Shown here piece after piece: positions 16,004-59,099 of a stretch of DNA of 64,000 nucleotides. Below the pieces are notes generated by a model that was not told where the DNA came from, did not search any database, and saw only the letters and a list, made by a program, of their open reading frames with translations. The translations under genes and the position numbers were made by a program. Every line of letters begins with the position of its first letter. Within the stretch, counting starts at the first letter, position 1. This DNA comes from Candidatus Falkowbacteria bacterium (GTDB lineage: Bacteria > Patescibacteriota > Patescibacteriia > CAIXNZ01). The stretch spans positions 256,771-320,770 of the forward strand of contig CAVZGV010000003.1 of assembly GCA_963774955.1 (NCBI GenBank), given 5' to 3'.

Positions 16004-16040
16004 AATTTGTAATTCGTAGATAATTTGTACATTTGTAGCT
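16004..16040. repeat. ATTTGTA motif cluster (3 copies) sharing two 10-mers with the 23225-23298 array
   Basis: AATTTGTAAT (16004-16013) and ATTTGTAGCT (16031-16040) are identical to 23261-23270 and 23272-23281. The cluster lies upstream of the 16115 gene. Confidence 0.35.
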
Positions 16041-20501: not shown

Positions 20502-20526
20502 TTCGGAATCACAAAAAAAATTCACT

Positions 20527-20562
20527 AAAAACACGAAAATAGCTTTCGTGTTTTTTCGTGAT
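20527..20562. repeat. CACGAAAA-motif palindrome (AAAACACGAAAATAGCTTTCGTGTTTT + TTTTCGTGAT)
   Basis: Perfect inverted repeat ACACGAAA/TTTCGTGT followed by a third copy of TTTCGTG. It is related to the TIRs at 35707 and 36157 and to the motif at 44242. Confidence 0.5.
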
Positions 20563-20596
20563 AAAGATTTAGTGGTTCAGTTATCCTTGCAATTAT

Positions 20597-20634
20597 AAAA
20601 CCCCGAGGAACAAGTCCGCGGGGCTTTGGTTTTT
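20597..20634. terminator. Bidirectional terminator between recJ and the convergent 833-aa gene
   Basis: Hairpin CCCCGAGG...CCGCGGGG flanked by AAAA and TTTGGTTTTT. Confidence 0.5.
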
Positions 20635-23134
20635 AATCCTCGTCAGGATCGCTGCCGACAAAGAAGGTGTGAAATTCTCGATCAACAATTTTTGCTCCTG
20701 ATTTGAGGTCACCGCCCATTGAATCCGAATATTCGAATTCGTTGAGTGACGGCGGTAATTCCAGACGCAGGGTTCTGGTTTTGATCTTGGACTTGGGTAG
20801 GACCTCTTTGAGCAGGTCTACCAGTTCCTGGTCCTTGACTGCAATCATTACCGGTAAATCATTATCCCTGCTGATTTTGCCGGCTTTGGCTATCAGCCAT
20901 TGCAGCATGCCGATGCCGATCTCCCTGGACCAGGCTTTGCAGTACGGCCTTTCCATCAAAAGCAGGGGAATGGTTTCCTTATCCGTGTGGCCGTATTCAA
21001 ACGGCAAGAGGCGCATAATGCTGCGGCCAATGATGTCAAAATGATTATTTCTGATCCACAGTACTCGTTTGTTGGCATCAACCACATAAGCCGCCAGGCA
21101 TTGATTATGACCAGTCCATTCGTGCCAGCGTTGACAGCTTTGAACAGGTAAAGTACCGACTTTCATCAGCTCATAAGGCTTATCACTGTCTTCAAAGGTC
21201 AGATGCGAGATAGCTGAAGTGTCAGTGCTATTGAGCAGCTCAATAATTTGCTGCGTCAATTCTTTGGCTTCGGACGTGCCCAGCTTCTGAGCAATTTGGG
21301 ATAAATGACGCTGGATGTCTTTGAGCATTGTAACCGTGATCGCATTGATTTTCAACAACTCGCAGATGATTTTGATCAGGCCATATTCTTTTTTGATCTG
21401 ACCGAGTCTGGCGCCAATTTGCTTACGCTCTTCGGGAGACAAATCAGTGCCTCTGAGTTTCTTAACAAGATCTTCGTTTTCAGCGTCAATATCTGAGGTG
21501 ACTGGCTTGCCCGTGTGTTTTTCCCAGAGTACAGCTAGTTGTCCGGCTAAACGTTGGATAGCGTTGAGGCGCTGCTGGAGCGCGTCTGTCAGTCCGACAA
21601 TCATGGCATGCCGATGATCATCTTTCCACGCTTTCGGATTTGACAAGAAGTTGATTTGTTTGCCACTTGTTTTGTTACTGTAGCGCCAATGGTCAAAATG
21701 CTTGGCCATGGCTTGTTTGAGTGTTTCTGAGGCCAGCTCGGCCCCGCGCTCATAGCCATTGGCTTTGCATAATGAGGCATAGGTAAAGCACATTTCCAGC
21801 AGACCGTTTCTAGCCACAAGCTGCCAGATGTTATCCTGGGTCAGCAGGTTTAATTCTTCATCACTAAGATTAAGAATCTTTTTGTACATGGCTTTGGTTC
21901 CGTTTTCAACTTGGTAAACCAGATCTTCCATGGAAGCGCAATCAGCCGGATAGTTTAGATCCGATCTGGAACGAAGGCTAAGCATCTCAATGGCTTGTAA
22001 GCCCCGCAATAATTCCTCGCAGGAATTGGCCAGACTGATGAAATGACACAGTGATTTTTCAGCCTGCCCGGCATAGCGGAAGATATTCAGACAGCGCCAC
22101 AGCAATCTCTTGTCATCGCGTGACTTCTGGAAATGCTTGTCCGTGGTCAGCTCTTCCAGCTTGGCAATGATCTCTCGGGCCTGAGGCATTTCAAACTGAT
22201 ATTTGGTCAGAATGAGAAAGCCCAGACTCAGGGGCAGATTTTTCAGCGCTTGCAGCAGTTCCAGCCGTTCTGGCTGCTCGAAACATTGTTGCCAATCGAG
22301 ACTGCTTAGTGGATAGTCTATCAGGCTGCCGGCTTTGTAGTGGATGTTTTGCAGGATGACGGTAATGGCAAAACAGAATTTATCAGCTGTGTTTAGACAG
22401 GCTTGGATATCTTCAAGTTGCATTTTGAGCTGATCAAAATCCTTGGCTGAATTCTTGGTTTCTTTGGCCAGGTACGCAAGCAGGGAAGTGACCTCAGTCA
22501 GGGATAATCTTTGCAGAAAAAACGGGACCAGCTCGATGATGGCCGCAATATCATTGCCGGCGCCATCTTGATGCAGGGTTAAGAGGCTCCAGAATGCGTT
22601 CTGATAGTCTCTTTCGTTTAGACAATCATCCGCTGTATGCTCGGATAATTTATTTTGGTACGATTGCCAAATTGAGGAAGGCAGAGCATTGGCATGAGCC
22701 ATGGCCAAACTTAATTTGATGACCAAAAGCTGCCAGCTTCTCCAGTTTAGATATGTATCTTCCAGACATGAATTTTGCGGGCAGTGATCTGTCAGGTTAA
22801 GTAATGCCTGGGCCAATTCTGGAAGGCGGACTTGGCTGCGCATTTTGGGGCTTAGATTACCGCGCGAAGAAAATTTCGGTTTGACTGCTTTGGCCGTACT
22901 TTCTTTGGCCAGAAACTGTTTCCAGTCCTCAAAGGCAGAAAAACCTTTATTCAGCAGTTTCTGGTATCTTTCCAGCTGAAAGATTTCATAAAGAGCTTCT
23001 TTGTTGCCGTCATTCAGCAACCCCAGCTGTATTCCCAAATTTTGAGCCAGCACAAGACGTTGTTCTAAGCGCTGTTCTAACCTTGCCTCTTGCCGTAATT
23101 CCGGCCGGCAACACATCATAAGACCTAGTGCCAT
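20633..23134 (-). CDS. Large (833 aa) predominantly alpha-helical hypothetical protein, first gene of the high-GC island
   Basis: Long ORF with high-GC codon usage (CTG, GCC, CAG). It contains no Walker, HxH, GGDEF or other motifs I can recognise and has an acidic C-terminus (VGSDPDED). Confidence 0.6.
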   Translation of the reverse strand: MALGLMMCCRPELRQEARLEQRLEQRLVLAQNLGIQLGLLNDGNKEALYEIFQLERYQKLLNKGFSAFEDWKQFLAKESTAKAVKPKFSSRGNLSPKMRSQVRLPELAQALLNLTDHCPQNSCLEDTYLNWRSWQLLVIKLSLAMAHANALPSSIWQSYQNKLSEHTADDCLNERDYQNAFWSLLTLHQDGAGNDIAAIIELVPFFLQRLSLTEVTSLLAYLAKETKNSAKDFDQLKMQLEDIQACLNTADKFCFAITVILQNIHYKAGSLIDYPLSSLDWQQCFEQPERLELLQALKNLPLSLGFLILTKYQFEMPQAREIIAKLEELTTDKHFQKSRDDKRLLWRCLNIFRYAGQAEKSLCHFISLANSCEELLRGLQAIEMLSLRSRSDLNYPADCASMEDLVYQVENGTKAMYKKILNLSDEELNLLTQDNIWQLVARNGLLEMCFTYASLCKANGYERGAELASETLKQAMAKHFDHWRYSNKTSGKQINFLSNPKAWKDDHRHAMIVGLTDALQQRLNAIQRLAGQLAVLWEKHTGKPVTSDIDAENEDLVKKLRGTDLSPEERKQIGARLGQIKKEYGLIKIICELLKINAITVTMLKDIQRHLSQIAQKLGTSEAKELTQQIIELLNSTDTSAISHLTFEDSDKPYELMKVGTLPVQSCQRWHEWTGHNQCLAAYVVDANKRVLWIRNNHFDIIGRSIMRLLPFEYGHTDKETIPLLLMERPYCKAWSREIGIGMLQWLIAKAGKISRDNDLPVMIAVKDQELVDLLKEVLPKSKIKTRTLRLELPPSLNEFEYSDSMGGDLKSGAKIVDREFHTFFVGSDPDED

Positions 23135-23224: not shown

Positions 23225-23298
23225 AAGCTACAAATATACAAATAAATACAAATGACTACAAATTTGTAATAATTTGTAGCTGATTTGTATATTTGTAA
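23225..23298. promoter_or_regulatory. Palindromic array of 4 direct + 4 inverted TACAAAT heptamers in the promoter region of the 833-aa gene
   Basis: TACAAAT occurs at 23229, 23237, 23247 and 23257. ATTTGTA occurs at 23263, 23272, 23284 and 23292. The array is symmetric about ~23262 and lies 90-165 nt upstream of the start at 23134. Confidence 0.5.
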
Positions 23299-33618: not shown

Positions 33619-35691
<2,073 letters not shown>

Positions 35692-35706
35692 TTACGAAAG
35701 TTGGAC

Positions 35707-36173
35707 ACGAAAAAACACGAAAAATTGATGGCGTAATAAAAAGTTAAAACAAAAGGTGAAAAAATATGGGGGAAATAATATATAAAGATTTGAGTTATCA
35801 AGTTATGGGATCAGTTTTTAGGGTATTTAAGAAGTTGGGCTTTGGTTATAGAGAAAAATATTATCAGAGAGCCATTGAGGAAGAATTAAAAATAGAAAAT
35901 CTGGGATATATTAAGGAATGTTGCGTGAAACTAGAATATAATGGGAGAATTATTGGTAGATATTTTATAGATTTCGTTATTGAAGATAAGATTGCCTTAG
36001 AGATTAAGATAGCAAAAGATTTTTACACAAAAGATGTTAAGCAACTTTTAAGTTATTTGAAGGCAAAAAAATTAAAATTAGGAATTCTTATAATTATTAC
36101 TAAAGATGGGATTAGATATAAGCGTTTTGTTAATTAATTAAATTTGAACTGCGTATTTCGTGTTTTTTCGTGA
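35707..36173. mobile_element. GxxExxY-protein cassette bounded by 17-bp perfect terminal inverted repeats (CACGAAAAAACACGAAA)
   Basis: The left arm (35707-35723) is the exact reverse complement of the right arm (36157-36173). Between them lies a single GxxExxY-family ORF. Related motifs occur at 20527 and 44242. Confidence 0.45.
35766..36137 (+). CDS. GxxExxY family protein
   Basis: GYREKYY matches the Gxx-E-xx-Y signature. The length (123 aa) and composition fit this family, which is often found as an insertion cargo (for example in 23S rRNA intervening sequences). Confidence 0.65.
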   Translation: MGEIIYKDLSYQVMGSVFRVFKKLGFGYREKYYQRAIEEELKIENLGYIKECCVKLEYNGRIIGRYFIDFVIEDKIALEIKIAKDFYTKDVKQLLSYLKAKKLKLGILIIITKDGIRYKRFVN

Positions 36174-36209
36174 TTATTATTTCGTGGTTCATAATAACCT
36201 AATAAAACT

Positions 36210-36527
36210 ATGCAAATCAACATCAAAGGTACCAATATGGATCTGACCCCGGCAATTAAAGATTATGTCAATGAAAAAGTCGGCAGTTTGGAAAAGTTTT
36301 TTGACCAGGCTATTATAGCCAGGGTAGATGTAGGTCGTACTTCCAACCATCACCAAAAGGGCGATGTGTTCCGCGCGGAAATAAATATGGATGTGCCCCA
36401 AAAGCATGTATTGCGGGCTGAGTCAGTTAAAGAAGATTTGTATTTAGCCATTAATGACGCTAAGGCTGATTTGGAACGTCAGATTAAAAAATATAAGGAA
36501 AAAATGCGGGGGAATGATAAATATTAA
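36210..36527 (+). CDS. hpf: Ribosome hibernation promoting factor (HPF/RaiA, short form)
   Basis: MQINIKGTNMDLTPAIKDYVNEKVGSLEKFF...RAEINMDVP...AINDAKADLERQIKKYKEK. Confidence 0.8.
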   Translation: MQINIKGTNMDLTPAIKDYVNEKVGSLEKFFDQAIIARVDVGRTSNHHQKGDVFRAEINMDVPQKHVLRAESVKEDLYLAINDAKADLERQIKKYKEKMRGNDKY

Positions 36528-42600: not shown

Positions 42601-44091
42601 ACTCTGAGTAATTATTTAACTTTTCGTAATGGCACTAGCGGTTTGAATTTTGACGTAAATACTAACACAGTAACTTTTACCCTTCCAAGTATGCAAGTTA
42701 ATGGGTTGGCTAATTTTATTATTAATGTGGTTGTTAAGAAAGGCAGCGAAGGGAAGGTCATTATTAATCAGGCTCAAGTTTCAGGCGATAATTTTATGAC
42801 GGTTTCCACTAATATAGTCCGCAATGAAGTCGAACCCGCAGTTTTATCTCTTTGCGGGAATAATAAAATTGATCCTGGTGAACAGTGTGATCCGACAGGC
42901 TGTGCCAGTGATGAACGTTGTGTTTCTTGCCGTTGCCAGCCAATTCCGCCAGCCCCGGTTTGCGGAAACAGCATAGTTGAAACAGGAGAACAGTGCGATA
43001 ATACTGCCTGCGGAGCAGATCAGATATGCAGTAATTGCGCCTGTCTGCCAGTCGCCATCCCGCCGGTTATCCCGCCAATTCCGCCTGTCATCCCGCCGCC
43101 AGTCACACCACCTGGCACTCTACCGCCAGGCACTCCTCCGGGCACTTTACCACCATCAACACCGCCGGGGATCCCGCTAATCACGCCGATAATCAGTTCC
43201 ATTTCAGGCGTCATCGACCAAATAGTGTCGGAACAGTTAAAGGAATTCATGGATAATTCGCAAGTTGAACAAACGAGCCAGAATGTCGTGACGCCGATAT
43301 TGTTGGGCTTAGCGCTATTAAATACAGTGCCATTAATCTTGGCTTTGAGTATTTACCTGTTGCCGTATCTGCATCTGCTTTTCCTGGAGCCGTTATTAAT
43401 TTTGTTCGGCAAGAAAAGGAAAAAGTGGGGCGTAGTTTACAATTCACTGAGTAAAGTGCCTGTTGATTTGGCTTTGGTAAGATTGTACCGTAAAAATGAT
43501 AATATGCTGGTGCAGACTAGGGTAACGGATAAGGAAGGCAGATATATCATAATCGCCAAAGAACCTGGTAAATATTACCTGAGCGTCACTAAGCCTGGAT
43601 TTACCAGCCCAACAAAATATCTGAAAGATGAAAAACAAGATCTGAAATACCTAGATTTGTATCATGGAGAAATGCTTGAGATCACTGAAAAGGATGCGGT
43701 CATAACTGCCAATATACCATTGGATCCGGCAGAAAAGATGGCCTTGCCGCTCAAGGAAGTGCTTAGGAGCTATTTATTGAAAAATTTAAGGTTAATCATC
43801 TCGTATGTGGGCATTATTCTGGCCTTACTGATAGTGATCATTTATCCGACCGTAATTACCATTGGAGCTTTGATTTTGCATGTTATTTTATTCTTGATTT
43901 TCCGCAGGCTGATAGTGCCGGCCAAGCCCAAACGCTGGGGCATTGTTTATGATGCCGAAAACAAGGCGCCATTGCATCAGGCCGTGGTAAGAATTTTTGA
44001 CACGAAATTTAACAAGCTGCTGGAAACGCAGGTGACAGACCGCAAAGGACGTTATGCTTTCTTGTGGGAAAAAATGAATACCAGCTGTTGA
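36634..44091 (+). CDS. Giant cell-surface protein, paralog 1 (2485+ aa). Domains: N-terminal TM anchor, W-repeat beta-propeller, Kelch/Asp-box propellers with Cys-rich loops, FN3-like, DUF11/CARDB-like, two Myxo-type Cys-rich repeats, Pro-rich linker, and a C-terminal module of TM helices and CarboxypepD_reg-like domains
   Basis: The ORF is continuous. Kelch motifs (IYLFGG...NDVWRSQDGYNWQQ). An FN3-like region (LPCVATSSAAIDW...YSRYVTAYNAAGES). CGNNKIDPGEQCDPTGCASDERCVSCRCQ and VCGNSIVETGEQCD repeats. The CarbopepD_reg-like domain reads KKWGVVYNSLSKVPVDLALVRLY...TDKEGRYII. The reading frame breaks ~40 codons before the end (compare the paralogs), so the track ORF ends early at 44091. The homologous C-terminus continues in another frame to ~44190. 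Confidence 0.85.
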   Translation: MINPRKIRQKVVFLKFFSFKTKLILSLVFVLIIAIIFSVNYFVPVSADNFLVTENFTTDTLKDANATTGIWDTTLNQARLLGKDWINMEETKDTYGPFTTLTDSVLNYNITYDTSANPYIVWVSNGVGGVGDVYFTKWTPGTGWTGMDCISAYDNISSSTALSSQPKIKLDGADDPIIIWSESSTSTDIYLAHWDSGNNRWANMAGNASAPENISQDSVNNTFFTLEVDGTGKPAIVFTRNVGPTINDLYFTTWNGTTWTGADGVDTDFNPLIYENDKISDSSTSYGNENIKLRFNSLNEPYIAWWQIIVSPTRVLFTKWTPAVGWTHMDGTTLGFEPISDLTKVGSQPNLEMGTDDFPYITYVEAPVGGGPSSNLEILFAHWTGSGWYGMDGIVLRDNVSINTSSSQVPQMKLDAGNNPIVIWRDTTPPGGGAVTQLEVYLRKWTGVAWTAMDGIATYDNISNTPAARSYTYNLAVDSTGEPNLFWGDGPSSLLNYYFTRWVVGSGWEKIDGTLGQDAVLSGAAINSFSVGPDDTPYVLFADPPSTGQPQLIKGKDIYASTSDIVSLNMNTGSDFVVSAKISAAETLNGQTVNYFLSNDGGATWEVVSNNVAHDFITSHGFDLRWKAELVTILNSVTPVVDDLDITYRTKKIFCSLSPTSVLQGQPVTIAATTSFVPGAVWATVEKNGEVLSTVTMNNVGGNNFSVNYSTAGTNLGRNDVAVFASNATDTYVCNPSTGVDWQRMSTNDIPWDPRTFHGSVSLGNYIYLFGGLSDRFLSDVWRSQDGYNWQQMPDAPWAARGMFDPIVFNDKIWVMGGRSYVYLSSPVNYGDVWYSSDGQSWTQSTNDLPSSPAVTRRTYASTVFNNKLWISGGNSGGPTNDVWYNDDPITNAWVQATPAASWSVRTLHQMVTFDNKMWVMGGNGPLNDIWHSTDGVNWYDTFCQGGVDDGQACVIGGDCDSSSCLSETAAWPARVDFQALVFDEDGSGPQPEKMWVMGGADFLAEGRTNYNDVWSSVDGSTWILRSNPLWTASYPLNSAPATWEMWSARNGLQVVKHNNGAGDKLYLLGGYEYRAASQNDVWISSDGSNWDILNTSYNAPFSPRFNTKIIDFKPALGTDQLWLLGGKTRSGGLANDIWSTADGRTWSLKVDNGITPWSARFGHNVFTFDNKLWILGGCANDKERADPNTQPQPGAYCLGKCDGGTNNGAYCNVATDCNSFKCKWQGLNDIWNSNDGENWTCVVGSGCPNPVAWAGRYGQTVATYNGKIYLIGGITRGACLGAPVLGSACTGNAQCVAGGGTQCAGVCLSGTNAGNPCLNDAACGGNKCSNYANVFNRDVLSSSNGYTWTQEIASAPWPLRYNSSAISFNDGYAEKLYFFGGYYVGPIYYNDVWWTTDGATWRNTFCQGGIYEGKACIIAGDCGTGICAAKTAEWPGRMTFALQKYNDKLWVYSGQTLGDIPGPGTQLLPALWTNDVWWSNNGSFWTQANNTAEFPGRDYFTSAVFDNRLFLTGGDSNWGTMNDVWASSYDYSSMNFTVSSAPGSTGSSCTDTVPEDPGDVVAPSLPCVATSSAAIDWDFVDNAACEMGYRLYDAATDVRIKYVEQPNLSLISETGLDVNNQYSRYVTAYNAAGESAATTAASCFTLAKVPNKPIILSANENEIILQIDPNDGNPVGTEYEIKELLTNQFVQADGTFGAGETWQTYDNWGGDSGLAVIGELPAAEQPLYEEPYQQPDLNNNENINAAFHISLTSGQNYNFTVQAKNGDGIPTGFSATTSATTVTTGPGTVLAPNVGAEKGVFKKITWHSSFGLFNVALASNKLLINASGPISHVLAVLSWLLNLTLLILLVMLGLSLYQTLKYLKHEIKYPDTFRLIWSILSREAQHSYKSDALRTADGVYYISAFGQHKKLQNLSQQTFKGTLAAMGIKLIILGTLFTGLITVNHSSLALLQPYNLGGETLKVGDVLTYDLEVSNKGTAPAQNIVIKDTLSNYLTFRNGTSGLNFDVNTNTVTFTLPSMQVNGLANFIINVVVKKGSEGKVIINQAQVSGDNFMTVSTNIVRNEVEPAVLSLCGNNKIDPGEQCDPTGCASDERCVSCRCQPIPPAPVCGNSIVETGEQCDNTACGADQICSNCACLPVAIPPVIPPIPPVIPPPVTPPGTLPPGTPPGTLPPSTPPGIPLITPIISSISGVIDQIVSEQLKEFMDNSQVEQTSQNVVTPILLGLALLNTVPLILALSIYLLPYLHLLFLEPLLILFGKKRKKWGVVYNSLSKVPVDLALVRLYRKNDNMLVQTRVTDKEGRYIIIAKEPGKYYLSVTKPGFTSPTKYLKDEKQDLKYLDLYHGEMLEITEKDAVITANIPLDPAEKMALPLKEVLRSYLLKNLRLIISYVGIILALLIVIIYPTVITIGALILHVILFLIFRRLIVPAKPKRWGIVYDAENKAPLHQAVVRIFDTKFNKLLETQVTDRKGRYAFLWEKMNTSC

Positions 44092-44241
44092 CGGAAAAAG
44101 AAGGTTACAAACCCAGGGAAGTTAAGCCGGTTGATCTGGTTAAAAATGAGGAGATTGTCAATTTGGATGTCGGATTGAGTAAAAATTGATATCGGAATCA
44201 CCTGCCTACGCCAAGGCTTCGGCAGGCAGGCGGAAATTGAT

Positions 44242-44264
44242 TCACGAAAATACACGAAAACGAA
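44242..44264. repeat. CACGAAAA motif pair (TCACGAAAATACACGAAAACGAA)
   Basis: Third locus of the same motif family. It follows an imperfect hairpin (CCTGCC...GGCAGG, 44195-44232) downstream of giant gene 1. Confidence 0.4.
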
Positions 44265-44428
44265 TACTGGAACGAAAACTGGATTTAGTGTATTTCGTTA
44301 TAACTTTATAATTCATTTATCCAATATTAAAAGCTCCCATTATTGTGGTTGGAGGAGTTTTTATATTGGCGATTTTTATTTTGGCTAGTTTTAGCCAGAT
44401 GATATAATAAAATTGTAATCAAAGACAC

Positions 44429-50400: not shown

Positions 50401-52087
50401 GAATGTGGGCGATAAGCTGAGCTATATAATTGAAATCAGCAATTCAGGTACAGCCGCGGCCAATGACGCAGTAGTTATGGATACGATAGACAGCAATCTG
50501 GAAAATTTTACAGTTACCGGAATAATTAATTGTGGTACATATACTGACAAGTCAACAGCAACAGTTTTAAACGTAGACGGAGTTGATGTGGCCGAGGCAT
50601 CAACCTGTGTCATTACCTATACAGCGAAAGTAAAAACAGGCACAGAAGGAAATACCATTACCAATCAGGCTTTGGCCTTGGGTCCAGACTTTGCCACAGT
50701 GACAACGAATATAACCATTAATAGTATAAATGCTGCGCCAGCATTAGTTTGCGGGAATAATAAAATTGATCCGGGTGAACAATGTGATCCGACAGGTTGT
50801 GCCAGTGATGAACGTTGTGTTTCTTGCCGTTGCCAGCCAATCCCGCCCACACCGGTTTGCGGTAACAACATAGTGGAAACAGGGGAACAGTGCGATAATA
50901 CTGCCTGCGGAGCAGATCAGATATGCAGTAATTGCGCTTGCCAATCCGTTATCCCGCCAATCCCGCCAGTAATCCCGCCGCCAGTCACACCACCAGGAAC
51001 TCTACCGCCAGGAACTTTACCACCAGGCACCCCGCCGGGCACTTTACCACCATCGACACCTCCGGGCATACCGTTAATTACGCCGATAATCAGTTCAATT
51101 TCAGGCGCTATAGACCAAATATTGCCGGAACAGTTAAAGGCAATTTTGGATAATCCGCAAGTTGAACAAACGAGCCAGAATATTGTGACGCCGATACTTT
51201 TAGCCTTGGCGCTATTAAATACAGTGCCATTAATATTGGCTTTGAGTATTTACCTGTTGCCGTATCTGCATCTGCTTTTCCTGGAGCCGTTATTAATTTT
51301 GTTCGGCAAGAAGAGGAAAAAGTGGGGCGTAGTTTACAATGCTTTAACCAAAATACCAATAGATTTAGCTTTGGTCAGATTGTACCGTAAAAATGATAAT
51401 ATGCTGGTGCAGACGAGGGTCACGGATAAGGAAGGCAGATATATCATCATTGCCAAAGAACCCGGTAAATATTATCTGAGCGTAACCAAACCGGGATTTA
51501 TCAGCCCGACCAGGTATCTGAGAGATGAAAATCAAGATACAAAATATCTGGATCTGTATCACGGTGAAGTGATTGAAGTGACAGAAAAAGATGCGGTCAT
51601 CACCGCCAATATCCCGTTGGATCCAGCGGAAAAGATGGTTTTACCGATAAAAGAGGTTGTCAGAAGTTATCTGCTCAAGAACTTAAGATTAATTATTTCC
51701 TATATCGGGATGGTCCTGGCTTTGCTGATAGTGATTATTTATCCCACAGTAATAACCATTGGAGCTTTGATTTTGCATGTTATTTTGTTCTTGATTTTCC
51801 GCAGAATGATAGTGCCGGCCAAGCCCAAACGCTGGGGCATTGTTTATGATGCCGAAAACAAGGCGCCATTACATCAGGCTATTGTCAGAATCTTTGATAC
51901 CAGATTTAATAAATTGCTGGAAACCCAGGTGACTGACCGCAATGGCCGCTATGCCTTTTTGGTGGGTAAAAATGAATACCAGCTGTTGACTGAAAAAGAA
52001 GGTTACAAACCCAAAGAAGTTAAGCCTGTTGACCTGGTTAAAAATGAGGAGATTGTCAATCTGGATGTTGGCTTAAATAGAATTTAA
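44429..52087 (+). CDS. Giant cell-surface protein, paralog 2 (2552 aa), same architecture as paralog 1
   Basis: Continuous ORF. The N-terminus (MLNPRKIRQNMFFLKFFSFKTKLILSLVFVLII) is nearly identical to paralog 1. Kelch/Asp-box blades with CxxxGxxCxxxxDCxSxxC loops. The FN3/DUF11/Cys-repeat/Pro-linker/TM/CarbopepD_reg C-terminal module is present. TGATATAAT sits at 44400-44408. Confidence 0.9.
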   Translation: MLNPRKIRQNMFFLKFFSFKTKLILSLVFVLIIVVTLGYNYFQSVNAENVSFTETFSTLANKDVNITTGKWDTVLGLARLLGKDWVNMAETKDGLETISSSGINYIYDVEYDSAGNPYIVGIDKSRGRNLPFFVKWTPSMGWTNMAETIAGQEILYDTGFSASSPELALDSNDNPYLIWGQLIPPSGSEADIFFTKWSPSACGGAGCWTNMAGTTAGPEEIAHNGYRYNIVNDIKIDSSNYPQVLYSLDMTGSNIHDLFFSRWNGASWTKANGIDADSDPATYESDNITNTPAADDQLAGLNLVNDNPYVAWYGFSNTDVLFSKWTPGLGLCADPVGCWTNMQETILGPEKVDQPNVVGYPGTYFSAPKNNFKIATDNNVYISWSYETPAAVPGQPLDVYIRKGIAGVGWSQIDNSPGYTNVSNSALDNSNLKGFSLDSANNPNVIWGERPGGWGGTNNDVYFARWNGSSWVKMDGTPAPENITNSADTITAPEFIVLDSFNTPYVLYYESSGRQLKKWSGSIWGKMDGSAGYELLTPPSVAVRSLDIINSNPQFIGDNNVVESAYFSKYLPTYNTTSTIQSVNVSTAGTDFIKSAALTANQTLNGQNIIYSISNDGGATWTIVPGTGTLLDFSTAGNDLRWKADLQGTSSVTPIINDLSLSYQTRKITCSLTPNSVLQGQSVTISASTGFAAPKVWATVEKDGSVLSTVDLVGGPNNWSYQFPTGSQNFGQNDVAVFTTDGTDTFVCNPSTGADWQMMTKEDIPWDRRYTHSAVSFNNRLFVMGGITDRNQNDIWYSADNGVNWTGPATAAWSPRSYFGLVNFQGQLWLLGGSYMEDTANDVPSTTTYNDIWVSSNGLNWTPSTPANAPWIGRLGFGSTVYDGKIWIAGGYDYLSATYMNDVWSFDGTTWVNETTLPTGRYGLQLAAWDEDGSGLEPEKLWVIAGRSTGGVREEDVHSYDTISGWNCVAGPVAYGCPAASIPAWGAPPVVGDGRLFHQVLIYNDPNDALDTPNMYLMGGQTVFSGEYNFNDVWVTTTADAKPGADWNLVVDPDDYYPYTDPPTLPQQWTSWSGRRNFAATIHDGKMWVLGGYGITTRSTWNDVWYSDNGNDWNLVGENYGGIFQKRWGTQLTHLDPDGPLGPIPDKLFILGGTTGAVGSTNDVWSSVNGTDWTLELYSDPYDIPTPTRWLPRNAHQVVTYNNNLYLVGGCSQGGSFCYGYCSITKKRCTNDILIPAIAAVNCDSVTEGICLPGNFNDVWSSPDGVSWNLVTDTPAWEGRYYPTVSVFDDGTGEKIWMLGGQGWRRCIGGVEDGAVCDKNASCDSNVCSRICYGGDRKGLSCTTDANCPASVCAGGQPSVDAYRFLKDVWFTSDGSVWYSGFCTGGANAGAACNKNSDCASLVCTANKAAWSARNGHSSVAYNDGSGEKLYVMGGWDSSPASSLNDVWSTSDGKNWSQIALLDEPGWLRRYTHQIYNYDDKIFLLGGNTFRTSAPNRNLLPALWTDEVWTSVTGNGSDWTPVTTDAPWRGRDFFSSTIFNNRMWLTGGDSSTSAMNDVWASTYDYSSMNFTVSTPPGSTGSNCTDTKPEDPGDVVAPTLPCVATSSAEIDWNFVDNAACEMGYRLYDATTDIRMKYVEQPNLSTIEETGLATNIQYSRYVTAYNAAGESGATSPASCYTLAKVPNKPIILSANENEIILQIDPNDGNPPGTEYEIKELLTNQFVQADGTFGTVETWQTYAAWGGDSGLAVIGELPAAEQPLYEEPSQQPDLNAAFHISLTAGQNYSFVVQAKNGDGILTGFSPATGSTSGPTGPAPVLAPIITAAKGVAINLVRNSNYNVNIFAAALAESGFGFNANTSKTESLLREFSLILNLLILILLGFLSGSIISSFSHLGKDLNWQKRLKLLGQMFVKEPAVMFSEQAQPDKNGIYQISFEKHKQSQLNAQKHVKRALGLIAIKAVVLVTLLTGLAGVNHLGKAQTAPYDQSGTAVNVGDKLSYIIEISNSGTAAANDAVVMDTIDSNLENFTVTGIINCGTYTDKSTATVLNVDGVDVAEASTCVITYTAKVKTGTEGNTITNQALALGPDFATVTTNITINSINAAPALVCGNNKIDPGEQCDPTGCASDERCVSCRCQPIPPTPVCGNNIVETGEQCDNTACGADQICSNCACQSVIPPIPPVIPPPVTPPGTLPPGTLPPGTPPGTLPPSTPPGIPLITPIISSISGAIDQILPEQLKAILDNPQVEQTSQNIVTPILLALALLNTVPLILALSIYLLPYLHLLFLEPLLILFGKKRKKWGVVYNALTKIPIDLALVRLYRKNDNMLVQTRVTDKEGRYIIIAKEPGKYYLSVTKPGFISPTRYLRDENQDTKYLDLYHGEVIEVTEKDAVITANIPLDPAEKMVLPIKEVVRSYLLKNLRLIISYIGMVLALLIVIIYPTVITIGALILHVILFLIFRRMIVPAKPKRWGIVYDAENKAPLHQAIVRIFDTRFNKLLETQVTDRNGRYAFLVGKNEYQLLTEKEGYKPKEVKPVDLVKNEEIVNLDVGLNRI
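49640..52087. repeat. ~2.4 kb 3' block of giant gene 2, near-identical (only scattered SNPs) to 56660-59099 in giant gene 3
   Basis: Long stretches are identical by direct comparison. For example, 50150-50400 equals 57170-57420. The embedded spurious track ORFs 50422..50613 and 57434..57625 are identical. Confidence 0.85.
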
Positions 52088-58200: not shown

Positions 58201-59099
58201 CGCCGATACTTATAGCTTTGGCGCTATTAAATACAGTGCCTTTAATCTTGGCTTTGAGTATTTACCTGTTGCCGTATCTGCATCTGCTTTTCCTGGAGCC
58301 GTTATTAATTTTGTTCGGCAAGAAGAGGAAAAAGTGGGGCGTAGTTTACAATGCTTTAACCAAAATACCAATAGATTTAGCTTTGGTCAGATTGTACCGT
58401 AAAAATGATAATATGCTGGTGCAGACGAGGGTCACGGATAAGGAAGGCAGATATATCATCATTGCCAAAGAACCCGGTAAATATTATCTGAGCGTAACCA
58501 AACCGGGATTTATCAGCCCGACCAGATATTTGAAAGATGAAAAGCAAGATACAAAATATCTGGATCTGTATCACGGTGAAGTGATTGAAGTGACAGAAAA
58601 AGATGCGGTCATCACCGCCAATATCCCGTTGGATCCAGCGGAAAAGATGGTTTTACCGATAAAAGAGGTTGTCAGAAGTTATCTGCTCAAGAACTTAAGA
58701 TTAATTATTTCCTATATCGGGATGGTCCTGGCTTTGCTGATAGTGATTATTTATCCCACAGTAATAACCATTGGAGCTTTGATTTTGCATGTTATTTTGT
58801 TCTTGATTTTCCGCAGGATGATAGTGCCGGCCAAACCTAAACGTTGGGGCATTGTTTATGATGCCGAAAACAAGGCGCCATTACATCAGGCTATTGTCAG
58901 AATATTTGATACCAGATTTAATAAATTGCTGGAAACGCAGGTGACTGACCGTAATGGCCGCTATGCCTTTTTGGTGGGTAAAAATGAATACCAGCTGTTG
59001 ACTGAAAAAGAAGGTTACAAACCCAAAGAAGTTAAGCCTGTTGACCTGGTTAAAAATGAGGAGATTGTCAATCTGGATTTGGGGTTAAGTAAAAATTAA
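52236..59099 (+). CDS. Giant cell-surface protein, paralog 3 (2287 aa). A different N-terminal anchor and ~15 W-repeat blades replace the Kelch region; the C-terminal module is shared with paralogs 1 and 2
   Basis: Continuous ORF. Repeats of type [VI]xF[TI]xWxGxxWxxMxG run through residues ~100-1500. A CxxC-rich segment (LYCGDGICNNGEICTSCSADCGIC) precedes the conserved FN3, DUF11, Cys-repeat, Pro-linker and TM/CarbopepD_reg module. Confidence 0.9.
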   Translation: MNRLKIKPLIFWRFVNEKVKLIFLGLIFILSIATVGLIIKNIIKAAPDIYSEDFTTTIFYDQENTTADWSTSIGQVSVAKEWVKSDGTKTYYENISRELYTSRNPAVVVNNSNQPYIFWENDTTGSGSYDYYFTRGNLIAEPADWQKMDGISGWENISSNPAGGPVNGKMAIDLSDKPYFVWQEANDIFFSYWTGSAWRGLQNPAASFDNLSQSAVLGYTASLPQISIDQWDRVFVAWQGNTATSNEIMVTMWDKLNPANSKWSSITGKNYCLHGSNDGTVCTDNSVCTGGGICVGYENISKTDKNSANPRLAIGTGSLPYPQLIWIENNGTYNQIVYSKWTYFSNTAFCGNSQYACWTNMAGTVKGFENISQCATFNCTYTSSDNFKLDSNGFPQLIWHTGLSSNTRLNFIHWDGSLWSGMAGLPGREIPDPTPIYNNDYKLAINQDDYPQLVFSAGSTRSALLFIHWNGSAWTGINNVPGVEVVRNFPAREPKIVVDNNNQVNLLWLDDSVDDGLNYFNVYFTKSNNNVWTRYSGSGNCTVGGALCTSDFDCSGSGYCQKIGFDNLSNTAWNNNNPNIAMAENGNLYVVWSAGDLSYTFKPEINFTYLDSVSKSWSVLRPGAESTTTLLGEKHSYATSLKIATSPLAPYSPYMMWEDDCSVSPYPTISDENQDDVCFMRWDGNNWVDMNGNLGNEEVTDNFIERRFFSKYYSPFRGSNNLLFDSLGNPYLIWVDQLSGSNNKDLNLTKWNGSSWVNMDNQRRCVYGVNAGNVCLLDRDCFDDLDLAVPRSLTGDGRCISDLCDGGVSDGYVCSRDLECMDKLNDGYCTGVENISNDPEGNYLITGDYYSHQAAVIDSADNLYLVWPEETSPGNPDDIFFTKWNGFAWVNMDGVTLGKENISNSAKVSYKPIIVFDNLANPYIIWQESPIGTYLLDPEVWLTHWDSGTNSWKSMDLSSSIEKIDVLAGGRSTINEDSVQFDGSNRPNILYNYYDAFGNYKVFFLRWDGSSWVDMAGTGSYDQFTNFYDGQLKFDSSYNPHIVMVDEINRLVKFTRWFGGQWSTMAGSPGIETIIENTEPYSAPIWELDTFDRPRVFWMDETEGYAINARDVFYTQWNGSDWVDVYNNPGYTNITHHYVAPMLDFDVVKDGNDNLHLINNKFEYNVNLYYSKLSVPTDYYRIVQSSDVYPGPLTDIVKSATLTTVTDNAGGNVTINYAVSNDYGNTWLPAPLGTEIVFNSAPTLKWRAYLKTTNETIVPTINDLTINYSTLAPPVGLYCGDGICNNGEICTSCSADCGICPPPPIILVTPAGTSDTICWDSIPEDPSDVVLPVLPCTATSPSAISWNFTDNAVCEAGYRLYDAATDIRMKYVEQPNLSTIEETGLATNIQYSRYVTAYNAAGESGSNTALSCFTLAKVPNKPIILSANENEIILQIDPNDGNPVGTEYEIKELLTNQFVQADGTFGSGETWQTYAAWGGDSGLAVIGELPAAEQPLYEEPSQQPDLNAAFHISLTAGQNYSFAVQAKNGDGIPTGFSSATGSTSGPTGPAPVLAPIITAAKGVAINLVRNSNYNVNIFAAALAESGFGFNANTSKTESLLREFSLILNLLILILLGFLSGSIISSFSHLGKDLNWQKRLKLLGQMFVKEPAVMFSEQAQPDKNGIYQISFEKHKQSQLNAQKHVKRALGLIAIKAVVLVTLLTGLAGVNHLGKAQTAPYDQSGTAVNVGDKLSYIIEISNSGTAAANDAVVMDTIDSNLENFTVTGIINCGTYTDKSTATVLNVDGVDVAEASTCVITYTAKVKTGTEGNTITNQALALGPDFATVTTNITINSINAAPALVCGNNKLDPGEQCDPTGCASDERCVSCRCQPIPPAPVCGNSIVETGEQCDNSACGADQICSNCACQSVIPPIPPVIPPPVTPPGTLPPGTLPPGTPPGTLPPSTPPGIPLITPIISSISGAIDQILPEQLKAILDNPQVEQTSQNIVTPILIALALLNTVPLILALSIYLLPYLHLLFLEPLLILFGKKRKKWGVVYNALTKIPIDLALVRLYRKNDNMLVQTRVTDKEGRYIIIAKEPGKYYLSVTKPGFISPTRYLKDEKQDTKYLDLYHGEVIEVTEKDAVITANIPLDPAEKMVLPIKEVVRSYLLKNLRLIISYIGMVLALLIVIIYPTVITIGALILHVILFLIFRRMIVPAKPKRWGIVYDAENKAPLHQAIVRIFDTRFNKLLETQVTDRNGRYAFLVGKNEYQLLTEKEGYKPKEVKPVDLVKNEEIVNLDLGLSKN
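56660..59099. repeat. Partner copy of the ~2.4 kb near-identical 3' block (see 49640-52087)
   Basis: See the partner feature. In addition, 56460-56640 matches giant gene 1 (41563-41705) rather than gene 2, so the gene is a mosaic. Confidence 0.85.

What the first reader, a model, noticed from the sequence alone, without database searches (positions are those of the whole stretch)
35707..36173. Miniature GxxExxY cassette with 17-bp perfect TIRs, and a CACGAAAA motif family at four intergenic loci
CACGAAAAAACACGAAA at 35707-35723 is the exact reverse complement of 36157-36173. The pair brackets one GxxExxY-family gene inserted between ligA and hpf. The same core, (A/T)CACGAAAA, occurs as a perfect palindrome with a third copy at 20527-20562 (after recJ, at the island border), as a direct pair at 44242-44264 (after giant gene 1), and again as TTTCGTGG at 36181-36187. 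GxxExxY genes are known as cargo of insertions elsewhere, for example in rRNA intervening sequences. Here the TIRs suggest a mobile or formerly mobile mini-element, and the solo motif copies may be excision footprints or protein-binding sites. One of them sits exactly at the edge of the high-GC island.
Basis: partly seen in the sequence, partly recalled or inferred. Interest (0 to 1): 0.65.

Follow-up and report, generated by a model that had tools for sequence, protein, structure and literature searches.

The report
Nuclease gene cassette inside phased-heptamer hairpin arms
A small, uncharacterised nuclease gene between ligA and hpf sits between two mirror-image arrays of a repeated 7-base word, and this same layout, with or without the gene, recurs around this gene family in many bacterial phyla, which points to an undescribed kind of mobile or self-maintaining DNA cassette.

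Summary
CACGAAAAAACACGAAA lies at 35706-35722, and its exact reverse complement lies at 36156-36172 and 20544-20560. Each arm has three heptamers, spaced 13/10 and 10/14 nt. The arms bracket a PDDEXK_3/GxxExxY gene (35766-36137).

This layout is family-wide. In 71 of 77 GxxExxY genes sampled from metagenomes, the inverted-repeat score of the flanks exceeded the 95th percentile of 18 control genes. The arms there are also about three phased heptamers, but the word differs by lineage (CACGAAA, CACGAAT, CACGGAT, CACAGAT, CGCAGAT and others). Gene-less hairpins of the CACGAAA type occur in well over ten phyla.

The window holds two gene-less copies of that type (20510-20575, and a decayed one at 44243-44299). 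It also holds a hairpin of a second type, TACAAAT (23229-23297).

Relatives carry the cassette with its arms at the same ligA-hpf site (dN/dS 0.04-0.16). One relative has a repeat-free ligA-hpf site (two others lack the gene but hold unrelated hairpins), and one carries the same cassette lineage at pgk-eno.

Heptamer cores are conserved and spacers are not, and the arms show no G.U bias. I read the arms as DNA-level protein sites, most likely for the encoded nuclease, in a mobile unit comparable to REPIN-RAYT. Binding and mobilisation are inferred, not shown. I found no Rfam family and no paper describing this.

The parts
35692..35722 (.). Left arm of the cassette. It has three phased units: tTACGAAA at 35692-35699 (degenerate outer unit, directly after the ligA stop codon at 35689-35691), CACGAAA at 35706-35712 and CACGAAA at 35716-35722. 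Unit spacing is 13 and 10 nt.
   Evidence: Read directly from the sequence. A relaxed phased-heptamer scan finds this arm, with 0.1 such arrays expected from shuffles. The orthologous arms in L204 and L207 start with CCAC(T/G)AAA at the same place after the ligA stop codon.
35766..36137 (+). GxxExxY / PDDEXK_3 gene of 123 aa. It encodes a minimal PD-(D/E)XK nuclease fold. E30, D69, E79 and K81 are invariant.
   Evidence: PF13366 at 93.5 bits and TIGR04256 at 92.1 bits. Invariant columns come from a 44-sequence alignment. The AF2 model has pLDDT 94.7. The nearest solved folds are Cas4 SSO0001, lambda exonuclease, tRNA-splicing endonuclease, I-Bth0305I and Hjc. dN/dS is 0.04-0.16 against the orthologues.
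36156..36187 (.). Right arm of the cassette. Units are TTTCGTG at 36156-36162, TTTCGTG at 36166-36172 and TTTCGTGG at 36180-36187. Spacing is 10 and 14 nt, the mirror image of the left arm.
   Evidence: It is 89% identical over 36 nt to 20544-20579. As RNA, the arms are predicted to pair and close off the whole ORF.
20510..20575 (.). Gene-less hairpin copy of the same element, with 3+3 units and a 5-nt loop. It lies in the convergent spacer between recJ (which ends at 20501) and the minus-strand gene 20633-23134.
   Evidence: The single-stranded DNA fold is -16 kcal/mol with z = -5.6. recJ is confirmed by Pfam.
44243..44299 (.). Decayed gene-less copy. It reads CACGAAA at 44243 and 44253, then ACGAAT and AACGAAA, opposite TTTAGTG at 44284 and TTTCGTT at 44293.
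   Evidence: The fold is weak (z = -1.0). It shares the left-end decamer TCGGAATCAC (44192-44201) with locus 20503-20512; this was read, and about 0.1 such matches are expected by chance in the window.
23229..23297 (.). Compact hairpin of a second heptamer type, TACAAAT, with four units per arm. It belongs to the same architectural family. The window holds no cognate gene for it.
   Evidence: Found by the relaxed scan, with the sequence. The single-stranded DNA fold has z = -5.9.
16012..16037 (.). Solo arm of the TACAAAT/TACGAAT type, with no partner arm.
   Evidence: No hairpin forms (z = +0.6).
33631..35691 (+). ligA, the upstream host gene. Its stop codon abuts the left arm.
   Evidence: Pfam domains.
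36210..36527 (+). hpf, the downstream host gene. It starts 22 nt after the right arm.
   Evidence: Pfam and NCBIfam.

Best explanation
Positions 35692-36187 are one member of a family-wide cassette. The cassette is a promoter-less gene for a small PD-(D/E)XK nuclease (GxxExxY), bracketed by two mirror-image arrays of three heptamers (here CACGAAA) spaced about one helical turn apart.

**Shown**
- The layout is the rule for the sampled members of this protein family.
- Arms and gene are inherited together and relocate together.
- Gene-less hairpins built from the same arms are spread through many phyla and occur in several copies within genomes.
- At this locus, both the gene and the heptamers are held by purifying selection.

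**Inferred**
- The heptamers are DNA-level binding sites for a dimeric or oligomeric protein, most likely the encoded nuclease itself.
- That protein brings the two arms together, or recognises the hairpin or cruciform they can form.
- In doing so it mobilises, maintains or regulates the unit.
- The gene-less hairpins (20510-20575, 44243-44299) are non-autonomous or decayed derivatives that would depend on the protein in trans. This is how REPINs depend on RAYT.
For: **The layout is general.**
- The flanks of 77 metagenomic GxxExxY genes have a median inverted-repeat score of 36. Controls have a median of 15-16.
- 71 of 77 exceed the 95th percentile of other genes in the same loci (only 18 control genes). 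59 of 77 exceed the 95th percentile of the cross-locus control.
- The arms are about three units phased at 9-12 nt, with lineage-specific heptamers.

**The spacer between arm pairs is empty, short or a GxxExxY ORF.**
- Of the 66 convergent CACGAAA arm pairs in genome loci, spacer sizes of up to 500 nt cluster at 1-27 nt, 38-169 nt and 395-464 nt.
- All four in the largest of these classes contain a GxxExxY ORF. These are the window plus an Acidobacteriota, a Chloroflexia and a Ktedonobacteria MAG.
- The four wider pairs (1.1-5.4 kb) span ordinary genes or an adjacent IS and are probably separate elements.

**The signature fits protein sites rather than a plain stem.**
- Heptamer cores are conserved. 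Mismatches concentrate at positions 4 and 7.
- Spacers are identical between the two arms in only 24 of 96 cases.
- Mismatches between arms show no G.U bias on the sense strand: 93 against 93 transitions, plus 288 transversions.
- In the orthologues W, L204 and L207, the heptamers and the 13/10 and 10/14 spacing persist while spacers change and dS exceeds 1.

**The gene and arms behave as one unit and have moved.**
- One relative's ligA-hpf site (L211) has neither gene nor heptamers; L210 and L212 also lack the gene but hold other hairpins.
- The same cassette lineage (72% aa identity, same arm spacing) sits at pgk-eno in STA_35.
- At loci without flank homology, arm similarity rises with protein identity: 41% of pairs at 60% identity or more, against 5% below 50%.
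- Other phased arrays on a contig share the cassette's heptamer type in 19 of 41 cases, against 0 of 41 for a random other cassette.

**Several heptamer types coexist in one genome.** Examples are L036 and window positions 23229-23297. This argues against a single host factor.

**The protein looks like an active, dimeric nuclease.**
- E30, D69, E79 and K81 are invariant.
- Many relatives are two-domain tandem fusions, which is expected of a protein that works as a dimer.
Against: - No binding, cleavage or transposition has been shown for any GxxExxY protein.
- No target-site duplication or clean insertion junction was found.
- The cassette at ligA-hpf has stayed in place across lineages that differ by about 25% in LigA. 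Mobility here is therefore rare or extinct.
- An unrelated family (four-helix-bundle / S23p) also sits between arrays of short repeats. The arms could therefore reflect a shared insertion or RNA-processing mechanism rather than cognate binding.
- Co-inheritance of gene and arms fits the model but does not prove recognition.
- The 80 metagenome loci were the best tblastn matches to four arm-flanked queries. The sample may over-represent arm-bearing subfamilies.
Confidence: 0.5

Rival explanations
1. RNA-level stem. The cassette is transcribed by read-through inside host operons. The two arms pair in the transcript into a long stem, and RNase III or a similar enzyme processes it, as happens for rRNA intervening sequences. 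This insulates the host genes and releases or silences the cassette mRNA. The heptamer periodicity would be incidental.
For: - The GxxExxY gene is co-oriented with its upstream neighbour in 49 of 53 cases and with its downstream neighbour in 49 of 51.
- In many loci the arm lies too close to the start codon to leave room for a promoter. No promoter-like site precedes the gene here.
- As RNA, the arms are predicted to pair across the 433-nt interior.
- The Coxiella 23S intervening sequence has a 28-bp terminal stem cut by RNase III, plus three tandem GACAGAT heptamers upstream of its ORF (PMC4990558).
Against: - There is no excess of G.U-compatible mismatches on the sense strand (93 against 93). 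Most arm differences are transversions such as G/T at core position 4, which a stem would not tolerate.
- Spacers between cores are mostly non-complementary, while the cores are conserved.
- Direct repetition inside an arm is not needed for a stem.
- Gene-less copies sit in convergent, divergent and tandem spacers alike, 11/9/19.
- The whole-region RNA fold is not significant (z = -1.7).
Confidence: 0.2
2. Conventional MITE or transposon ends. The arms are terminal inverted repeats recognised by a transposase encoded elsewhere, for example a DDE enzyme. GxxExxY is only a frequent passenger gene.
For: - Multi-copy gene-less elements with conserved interiors lie at different loci in several genomes.
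- An IS1595-family transposase lies next to one element in Methylovulum (L103).
- Transposon ends with several phased binding sites are known from Tn7 and Mu. This last point rests on my own knowledge.
Against: - The only ORF recurrently found between close arm pairs is GxxExxY (4 of the 4 pairs with 395-464-nt spacers).
- The IS1595 gene lies beside its element, not inside it.
- No target-site duplication was seen.
- The heptamer word tracks the GxxExxY lineage. A mere passenger should not show this.
Confidence: 0.12
3. Host regulatory or structural sites. The heptamer arrays are operators for a host transcription factor or nucleoid protein, or they are bidirectional terminators. The GxxExxY gene merely tends to lie near them.
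For: - They are intergenic and palindromic, and some lie at 3' ends, such as window 20510-20575 between convergent genes.
- Phased A-tracts could bend DNA.
Against: - No terminator-like site was predicted at the cassette. The stems are followed by A-runs, not T-runs.
- Several different heptamer types coexist within one genome and even within one spacer (window 23229-23297).
- The same word appears in phyla with GC content ranging from 27% to 67%.
- The arms move together with the gene.
Confidence: 0.07

Closest known systems
REPIN-RAYT systems (REP doublet hairpins and their REP-associated tyrosine transposase; Bertels & Rainey 2011, PMC3116915; bioRxiv 10.1101/2021.07.10.451892)
   Same: - A single small gene is flanked by the same palindromic repeats that occur gene-less, as hairpin doublets, at many intergenic sites.
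- Tandem clusters of hairpins occur.
- Several repeat types coexist in one genome.
- The gene is inherited vertically over long periods at a fixed locus under purifying selection.
   Different: - The protein is a PD-(D/E)XK nuclease fold, not an IS200-like HUH/Y1 transposase.
- The arms are three phased heptamers, not a 20-40-nt REP carrying a GTAG or CGTC tag.
- GxxExxY genes are often multi-copy per genome. This point rests on my own knowledge and was not tested here.
- The family, and even identical repeat words, span many phyla.
23S rRNA intervening sequences carrying S23p / four-helix-bundle ORFs (Coxiella, Leptospira; PMC4990558)
   Same: - A small ORF of about 120 codons is enclosed by roughly 28-bp terminal inverted repeats.
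- Tandem heptamer repeats (GACAGAT x3) lie next to the ORF.
- The element is inserted in the sense orientation within a host transcription unit.
   Different: - The location is an rRNA helix, not a spacer between protein-coding genes.
- The cargo belongs to an unrelated protein family.
- The repeats there are contiguous (7-nt period), not spaced one helical turn apart.
- Excision of the intervening sequence by RNase III at the RNA level has been demonstrated. Here the mismatch pattern gives no support for an RNA stem.
MITEs and other bacterial palindromic repeats (Correia/NEMIS, ERIC, BIME)
   Same: - Short non-coding elements with terminal inverted repeats.
- Multi-copy and intergenic.
- Able to form hairpins.
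   Different: - No target-site duplication was found.
- No DDE transposase partner is present.
- The arms are internally periodic.
- Those repeat families are confined to a genus or family, whereas this one crosses phyla.
Free-standing PD-(D/E)XK homing endonucleases (such as I-Bth0305I) and Cas4/RecB-like nucleases
   Same: - The minimal PD-(D/E)XK core is shared, with the E...D...ExK catalytic set.
- These are the nearest solved folds.
- Both are selfish or mobile-element-associated nucleases.
   Different: - There is no intron or intein context.
- The protein is only 123 aa, with no extra DNA-binding domain and no Cas4 Fe-S cluster cysteines.
- The arms flank the gene itself rather than an empty allele.
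- Sequence identity to these proteins is 10-20% only.

Membership tests
GxxExxY / PDDEXK_3 protein family (PF13366, TIGR04256) | Profile match above the curated cut-offs | tested here: met
   PF13366 scores 93.5 bits against a cut-off of 22. TIGR04256 scores 92.1 bits against a cut-off of 35.
GxxExxY / PDDEXK_3 protein family (PF13366, TIGR04256) | PD-(D/E)XK catalytic residues and fold | tested here: met
   E30, D69, E79 and K81 are invariant in 44 sequences. The AF2 model has pLDDT 94.7 and an alpha-alpha-beta-beta-beta-alpha-beta-beta order of elements. The best solved folds are Cas4, lambda exonuclease and related nucleases.
GxxExxY / PDDEXK_3 protein family (PF13366, TIGR04256) | Nuclease activity | not testable with these tools
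   No biochemical data for any member appeared in the searchable literature. No sequence relative exists in the PDB.
REPIN-RAYT | Gene flanked by the same palindromic repeats that occur gene-less as inverted doublets elsewhere in the genome | tested here: met
   The window has the cassette plus gene-less copies at 20510-20575 and 44243-44299. The pattern is general.
REPIN-RAYT | The associated protein is an IS200/IS605-like Y1 (HUH) transposase | tested here: not met
   The only Pfam match is PDDEXK_3.
REPIN-RAYT | REP unit carrying a GTAG or CGTC tag at one end (PMC3733652 abstract) | tested here: not met
   The arms begin with (C)CACGAAA and end with TTTCGTG(G). No such tag is present.
MITE / DNA transposon | Terminal inverted repeats | tested here: met
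   There is a 17-nt exact inverted repeat within arms of about 31 nt.
MITE / DNA transposon | Target-site duplication | tested here: inconclusive
   No direct repeat was seen at the cassette ends, or at the ends of a five-member gene-less family aligned with its flanks. Divergence from the empty sites is too great to define exact junctions.
MITE / DNA transposon | Occupied and empty sites among relatives | tested here: met
   The site is occupied in the window, L204 and L207. L211 is a clean empty site; L210 and L212 lack the gene but hold unrelated hairpins. The same cassette lineage sits at pgk-eno in STA_35.
rRNA intervening sequence | Located inside a 23S (or 16S) rRNA helix | tested here: not met
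   The cassette lies between ligA and hpf. No rRNA or any other Rfam family was found in the window.
rRNA intervening sequence | Terminal stem processed by RNase III | not testable with these tools
   Long-range pairing is predicted. The mismatch spectrum shows no RNA-specific bias.
Intrinsic terminator | GC-rich stem followed by a T-run | tested here: not met
   No terminator-like sites were found in 35500-36400. In relatives, the arms are followed by A-runs.
Described structured RNA (Rfam 15) | Match to any covariance model | tested here: not met
   No hit appeared at gathering thresholds in the window or in ten loci, apart from an unrelated cobalamin riboswitch. At E up to 10, only generic hairpin (miRNA) models far below threshold matched.
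Known anti-phage defence system | Match to PADLOC models | tested here: not met
   No PADLOC family matched. Only a weak PHROG of unknown function matched.

The most novel reading that the evidence does not exclude
GxxExxY proteins are the trans-acting nucleases of a previously unrecognised, pan-bacterial class of hairpin replicators. They would be a PD-(D/E)XK counterpart of RAYT. Each protein lineage would read its own heptamer word (consensus roughly C-R-C-N-R-A-W), presented three times per arm at helical spacing. The family would then carry a simple protein-DNA recognition code that has diversified. The four-helix-bundle / S23p cassettes, including rRNA intervening sequences, would be a parallel system built on the same principle.
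Probability: 0.3. Interest if true: 0.85.

Novelty: new variant of a known kind. Interest (0 to 1): 0.72.

Why it matters
- **Size of the family.** PF13366/GxxExxY is a very large family: 22,485 clusters at 50% identity match the profile. It has no known function and almost no literature.
- **A testable substrate.** If its genes are systematically bracketed by phased heptamer arrays, and the same arrays exist gene-less across many phyla, then the family has a concrete DNA substrate that can be tested.
- **Unannotated repeats explained.** A class of intergenic repeats that goes unannotated in MAGs, including tiny CPR genomes, gains an explanation.
- **A candidate second long-lived replicator.** Alongside REPIN-RAYT, this would be a second case of a vertically persistent intragenomic replicator paired with a dedicated protein.
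- **Possible engineering value.** If the heptamer word co-varies with the protein, the family could offer a compact, diversified DNA-recognition module.

Tried and rejected
- **Chance repeat.** Rejected.
- **'Frequent word or common terminator'.** The 17-mer is found in more than 120 genome stretches. About 70 matches are expected by chance in 596 Gb, so the count alone proves nothing. What excludes chance is the context: a third unit, a partner arm in inverted orientation at short distance, and 66 pairs. No terminator signature is present.
- **Known RNA family.** None matched.
- **Literature by sequence words and by family names.** I found nothing describing the repeats or the association.
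- **Phage vector.** Most of the 30 viral-contig hits are an unrelated conserved coding region of giant viruses. Four contigs (three sharing one sequence) show an arm-like third unit, and none carries a clear GxxExxY gene.
- **IS1595 transposase as cargo (L103) and pheS as cargo (L093).** These are neighbours of separate elements, not cargo.
- **Target-site duplications.** None were found.
- **Terminator-like preference of gene-less copies for 3' ends.** Not seen: 11 convergent, 9 divergent, 19 tandem.
- **Source DNA by exact protein look-up.** Only two short Logan contigs turned up, without DNA. They show the same gene order.
- **Genome-wide count in the source genome.** Not possible.
Full report
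**1. The observation**

CACGAAAAAACACGAAA is at 35706-35722. Its exact reverse complement is at 36156-36172 and again at 20544-20560. A one-mismatch copy is at 44243-44259. That gives four matches at up to three mismatches, against 0.48 expected from shuffles.

The heptamer itself is not over-represented (12 occurrences against 8.3 expected), but 10 of the 12 fall in these three loci.

The enclosed ORF 35766-36137 is a GxxExxY/PDDEXK_3 protein. It is flanked by NAD-dependent ligA and by hpf. It is the only such gene in the window.

Reading the sequence shows three units per arm, not two:
- Left arm: tTACGAAA at 35692-35699, directly after the ligA stop codon, then CACGAAA at 35706 and at 35716.
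- Right arm: TTTCGTG at 36156, 36166 and 36180, the last followed by G.
- Spacing: 13/10 on the left and 10/14 on the right, a mirror image.

The palindrome after recJ (20510-20575) has the same 3+3 units and nearly the same spacing around a 5-nt loop. Its right arm is 89% identical to the cassette's right arm over 36 nt. It folds as single-stranded DNA with z = -5.6. It is therefore a complete gene-less copy, not a footprint. The 44243 locus is a decayed copy.

**2. The repeat outside this genome**

I scanned one genome per species for the 17-mer. About 70 matches are expected by chance in 596 Gb, so the count alone means little. The contexts are what matter.

In most hits the 17-mer is followed by a third unit, usually ending in TTTCGTGG. 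A mirror-image arm (CCACGAAAnnCACGAAAnnnCACGAAA) lies upstream. I found 66 such convergent pairs. Apart from four wide pairs of 1.1-5.4 kb, which span ordinary genes or an adjacent IS and are probably separate elements, their spacers fall into three classes:
- 1-27 nt.
- 38-169 nt.
- 395-464 nt. All four members of this class enclose a GxxExxY ORF: the window, plus a Pyrinomonadales, a Chloroflexia and a Ktedonobacteria MAG.

The carriers span Acidobacteriota, Lentisphaerota, Kiritimatiellota, Verrucomicrobiota, Bacteroidota, Planctomycetota, Nitrospinota, Chloroflexota, Desulfobacterota, several proteobacterial classes, Spirochaetota, Fibrobacterota, Patescibacteria and others. Their locus GC content ranges from 27% to 67%.

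The outermost bases co-vary between the two arms (ttagc/gctaa, ttgtc/gacaa, ttaac/gttaa, tttgc/gcaaa).

No Rfam family matches. No paper in the library contains these repeat words or discusses the association. Steczkiewicz et al. 2012 list PDDEXK_3 as 'unknown' with 'multiple transfers'.

**3. The reverse test**

I aligned the four arm-flanked proteins and used the alignment to fetch 80 GxxExxY loci from metagenomes. Almost all of these genes are bracketed by inverted arms of about three direct units phased at 9-12 nt. The heptamer differs between loci: CACGAAA, CACGAAT, ACGAAT, CACGGAT, CACAGAA, CACAGAT, CGCAGAT, CGCGAAT, CGCGGAT, CGCTAAT, AACAGAT, ACCATGAT, GGGGATG and others.

In numbers:
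- The median inverted-repeat score of the flanks is 36, against 15-16 in controls.
- 59 of 77 exceed the 95th percentile of a cross-locus control. That control is itself inflated by shared arm types.
- 71 of 77 exceed the 95th percentile of other genes in the same loci (only 18 control genes). Mann-Whitney p = 2e-9.
- By a strict criterion, 62 of 84 cassettes have clearly phased arms.

One caveat applies. These 80 loci were the best matches to arm-flanked queries, so the fraction may be somewhat inflated.

**4. History at this locus**

Two groups of relatives, with GxxExxY 69% and 73% identical to the window protein, have the gene at the same ligA-hpf site with arms in the same positions. Their heptamers drift between CACGAAA and CACTAAA, their spacers differ, and the 13/10 and 10/14 spacing is kept.

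Between these genomes synonymous sites are saturated (dS of 0.9 or more), dN/dS is 0.04-0.16, LigA is 75-77% identical and Hpf 61-70%. Both the gene and the heptamers are therefore under purifying selection, and the insertion is old.

Three other relatives have ligA directly next to hpf:
- L211 has a 64-nt spacer with no heptamers.
- L210 and L212 hold unrelated hairpins.

L210 comes from the STA_35 MAG. That genome carries a 72%-identical GxxExxY gene with the same arm spacing at a different locus, pgk-eno. It also carries a gene-less hairpin of the same design between rpmF and nusB. The unit of arms plus gene has therefore changed location at least once within this lineage.

More generally, at loci without flank homology, arm similarity rises with protein identity. 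It reaches 41% of pairs at 60% identity or more, against 5% below 50%. Other phased arrays on a cassette's contig share its heptamer type in 19 of 41 cases, against 0 of 41 for a random other cassette.

**5. What the arms are**

Four results point to DNA-level protein sites rather than a plain stem:
- Cores are conserved while spacers are not. Spacers are identical between arms in only 24 of 96 cases, and core mismatches concentrate at positions 4 and 7.
- Differences between the two arms show no G.U bias on the sense strand (93 against 93 transitions), and most are transversions (288).
- Units repeat at about one helical turn.
- Several heptamer types coexist in one genome. A Methylobacter spacer holds three tandem hairpins of two other types where Methylovulum has 40 nt. 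The window itself has a TACAAAT-type hairpin at 23229-23297 (z = -5.9) and a solo arm at 16012-16037. This argues against one host factor.

The protein is a confident minimal PD-(D/E)XK fold (pLDDT 94.7) with invariant E30, D69, E79 and K81. Its nearest solved folds are Cas4 SSO0001, lambda exonuclease, tRNA-splicing endonucleases, the homing endonuclease I-Bth0305I and Hjc. The profile matches 22,485 clusters at 50% identity. Many of the top hits are two-domain tandem fusions, as expected for a protein that acts as a dimer. It is not in PADLOC.

**6. What speaks for the RNA rival**

- The gene is almost always co-oriented with both neighbours (49 of 53 and 49 of 51).
- The arm often abuts the start codon.
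- No promoter-like site precedes the gene here.
- The arms are predicted to pair across the ORF in RNA.
- The Coxiella 23S intervening sequence has a 28-bp terminal stem cut by RNase III and three GACAGAT heptamers next to an S23p ORF (PMC4990558).
- Four-helix-bundle genes in my loci are likewise bracketed by arrays of 7-8-nt repeats.

Two unrelated gene families share the design. The arms could therefore reflect a common insertion or processing mechanism rather than cognate binding. I cannot exclude this.

**7. Verdict**

The cassette architecture, its generality, its inheritance as a unit, and the presence of occupied, empty and relocated sites are shown. Three steps are inferred:
- The heptamers are protein sites. 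I put this at about 0.55.
- The encoded nuclease reads them. About 0.45.
- The nuclease mobilises the unit and the gene-less hairpins in trans. About 0.3.

The closest analogue is REPIN-RAYT (PMC3116915), but two defining features fail: the protein is not a Y1 transposase, and there is no GTAG/CGTC REP tag. It is not an rRNA intervening sequence, not a terminator, and not a known Rfam RNA. I rate it a new variant of a known kind (a repeat-flanked selfish gene with non-autonomous hairpin derivatives). It appears to be undescribed and has a wide reach.

Noticed in passing
window 23229-23297 and 16012-16037: A compact hairpin built from a different heptamer, TACAAAT, with four units per arm (single-stranded DNA fold z = -5.9). 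It lies just upstream of the start of the 833-aa minus-strand gene (20633-23134). A solo arm of the same type lies at 16012-16037. The window holds no GxxExxY gene with such arms.
   Followed up: partly
L201 678-1028; L066 6398-6763; L144 2504-2821: Four-helix-bundle (23S_rRNA_IVP/bAvd-like) genes carry arrays of contiguous 7-8-nt repeats (GCTTGAA, GATAAGC, AGATTGA). The arrays lie on both flanks, in inverted orientation, in L201 and L066. For L144 only the upstream flank was available. This recalls the GACAGAT heptamers and 28-bp stem of the Coxiella 23S intervening sequence (PMC4990558). A second small-gene family therefore seems to share the cassette design.
   Followed up: partly
window 20503-20512, 44192-44201, 35687-35696: The three CACGAAA-type loci share a left-end decamer just outside the outer heptamer: TCGGAATCAC twice, and TCGTAATTAC at the cassette. 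At the cassette it overlaps the last codons and the stop codon of ligA. This suggests the element's end extends beyond the heptamers and may supply the ligA stop.
   Followed up: no
search of protein representatives: Many of the strongest GxxExxY relatives are 250-280 aa proteins with two tandem GxxExxY domains, that is, fused dimers.
   Followed up: no
L210 2830-2960; L212 2861-2960: The gene-less ligA-hpf spacers of two relatives hold a different GC-rich hairpin family (tgtcatggtgagc... / tgtcattccgagc...gaatgac). The same spacer has therefore collected unrelated palindromic inserts in different lineages.
   Followed up: no
L036 6060-6420 versus L090 736-776: An orthologous spacer is 40 nt in Methylovulum. 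In Methylobacter it is about 390 nt and holds three tandem gene-less hairpins of two other heptamer types (CACGGAT once, CGCAGAG twice).
   Followed up: partly
window 44085-44187 (compare 51983-52068 and 58995-59097): The sequence after the stop codon of giant gene 1 (ORF ends at 44091) is 90-93% identical to the C-terminal coding ends of giant genes 2 and 3. The 44091 stop may therefore be a frameshift, a pseudogene lesion or an assembly error. A GC-rich hairpin (cctgcct...aggcagg, about 44201-44231) follows.
   Followed up: no
L011, L020 (two copies), L116 (one Desulfohalobiaceae MAG): A composite repeat carries only one TTTCGTG arm, an internal GC hairpin, and the direct repeat tcttt(t)catgttaa at both ends. 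It is present in at least four copies in this MAG.
   Followed up: partly
L003, L069, L109, L106, L012: A gene-less element with a conserved interior of about 75 nt, and arms extending about 25 nt beyond the heptamers (ATCCTTAAAAC...), sits at different loci in five proteobacterial MAGs. Two of the copies are in one MAG.
   Followed up: partly
L216, L219, L222, L224-L227, L229, L231, L232, L234, L235, L237, L241, L243: In viral contigs, several of them labelled GVMAG (giant-virus MAGs), the 17-mer lies inside what looks like a conserved coding region (...TTTCGTGTTTTTTCGTGAAAATATAAGA...). This appears unrelated to the hairpin family.
   Followed up: no
L103 311-1267: An IS1595-family transposase gene lies immediately beside a gene-less CACGAAA/TACGAAA hairpin in Methylovulum miyakonense HT12. 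It is not inside the hairpin.
   Followed up: partly
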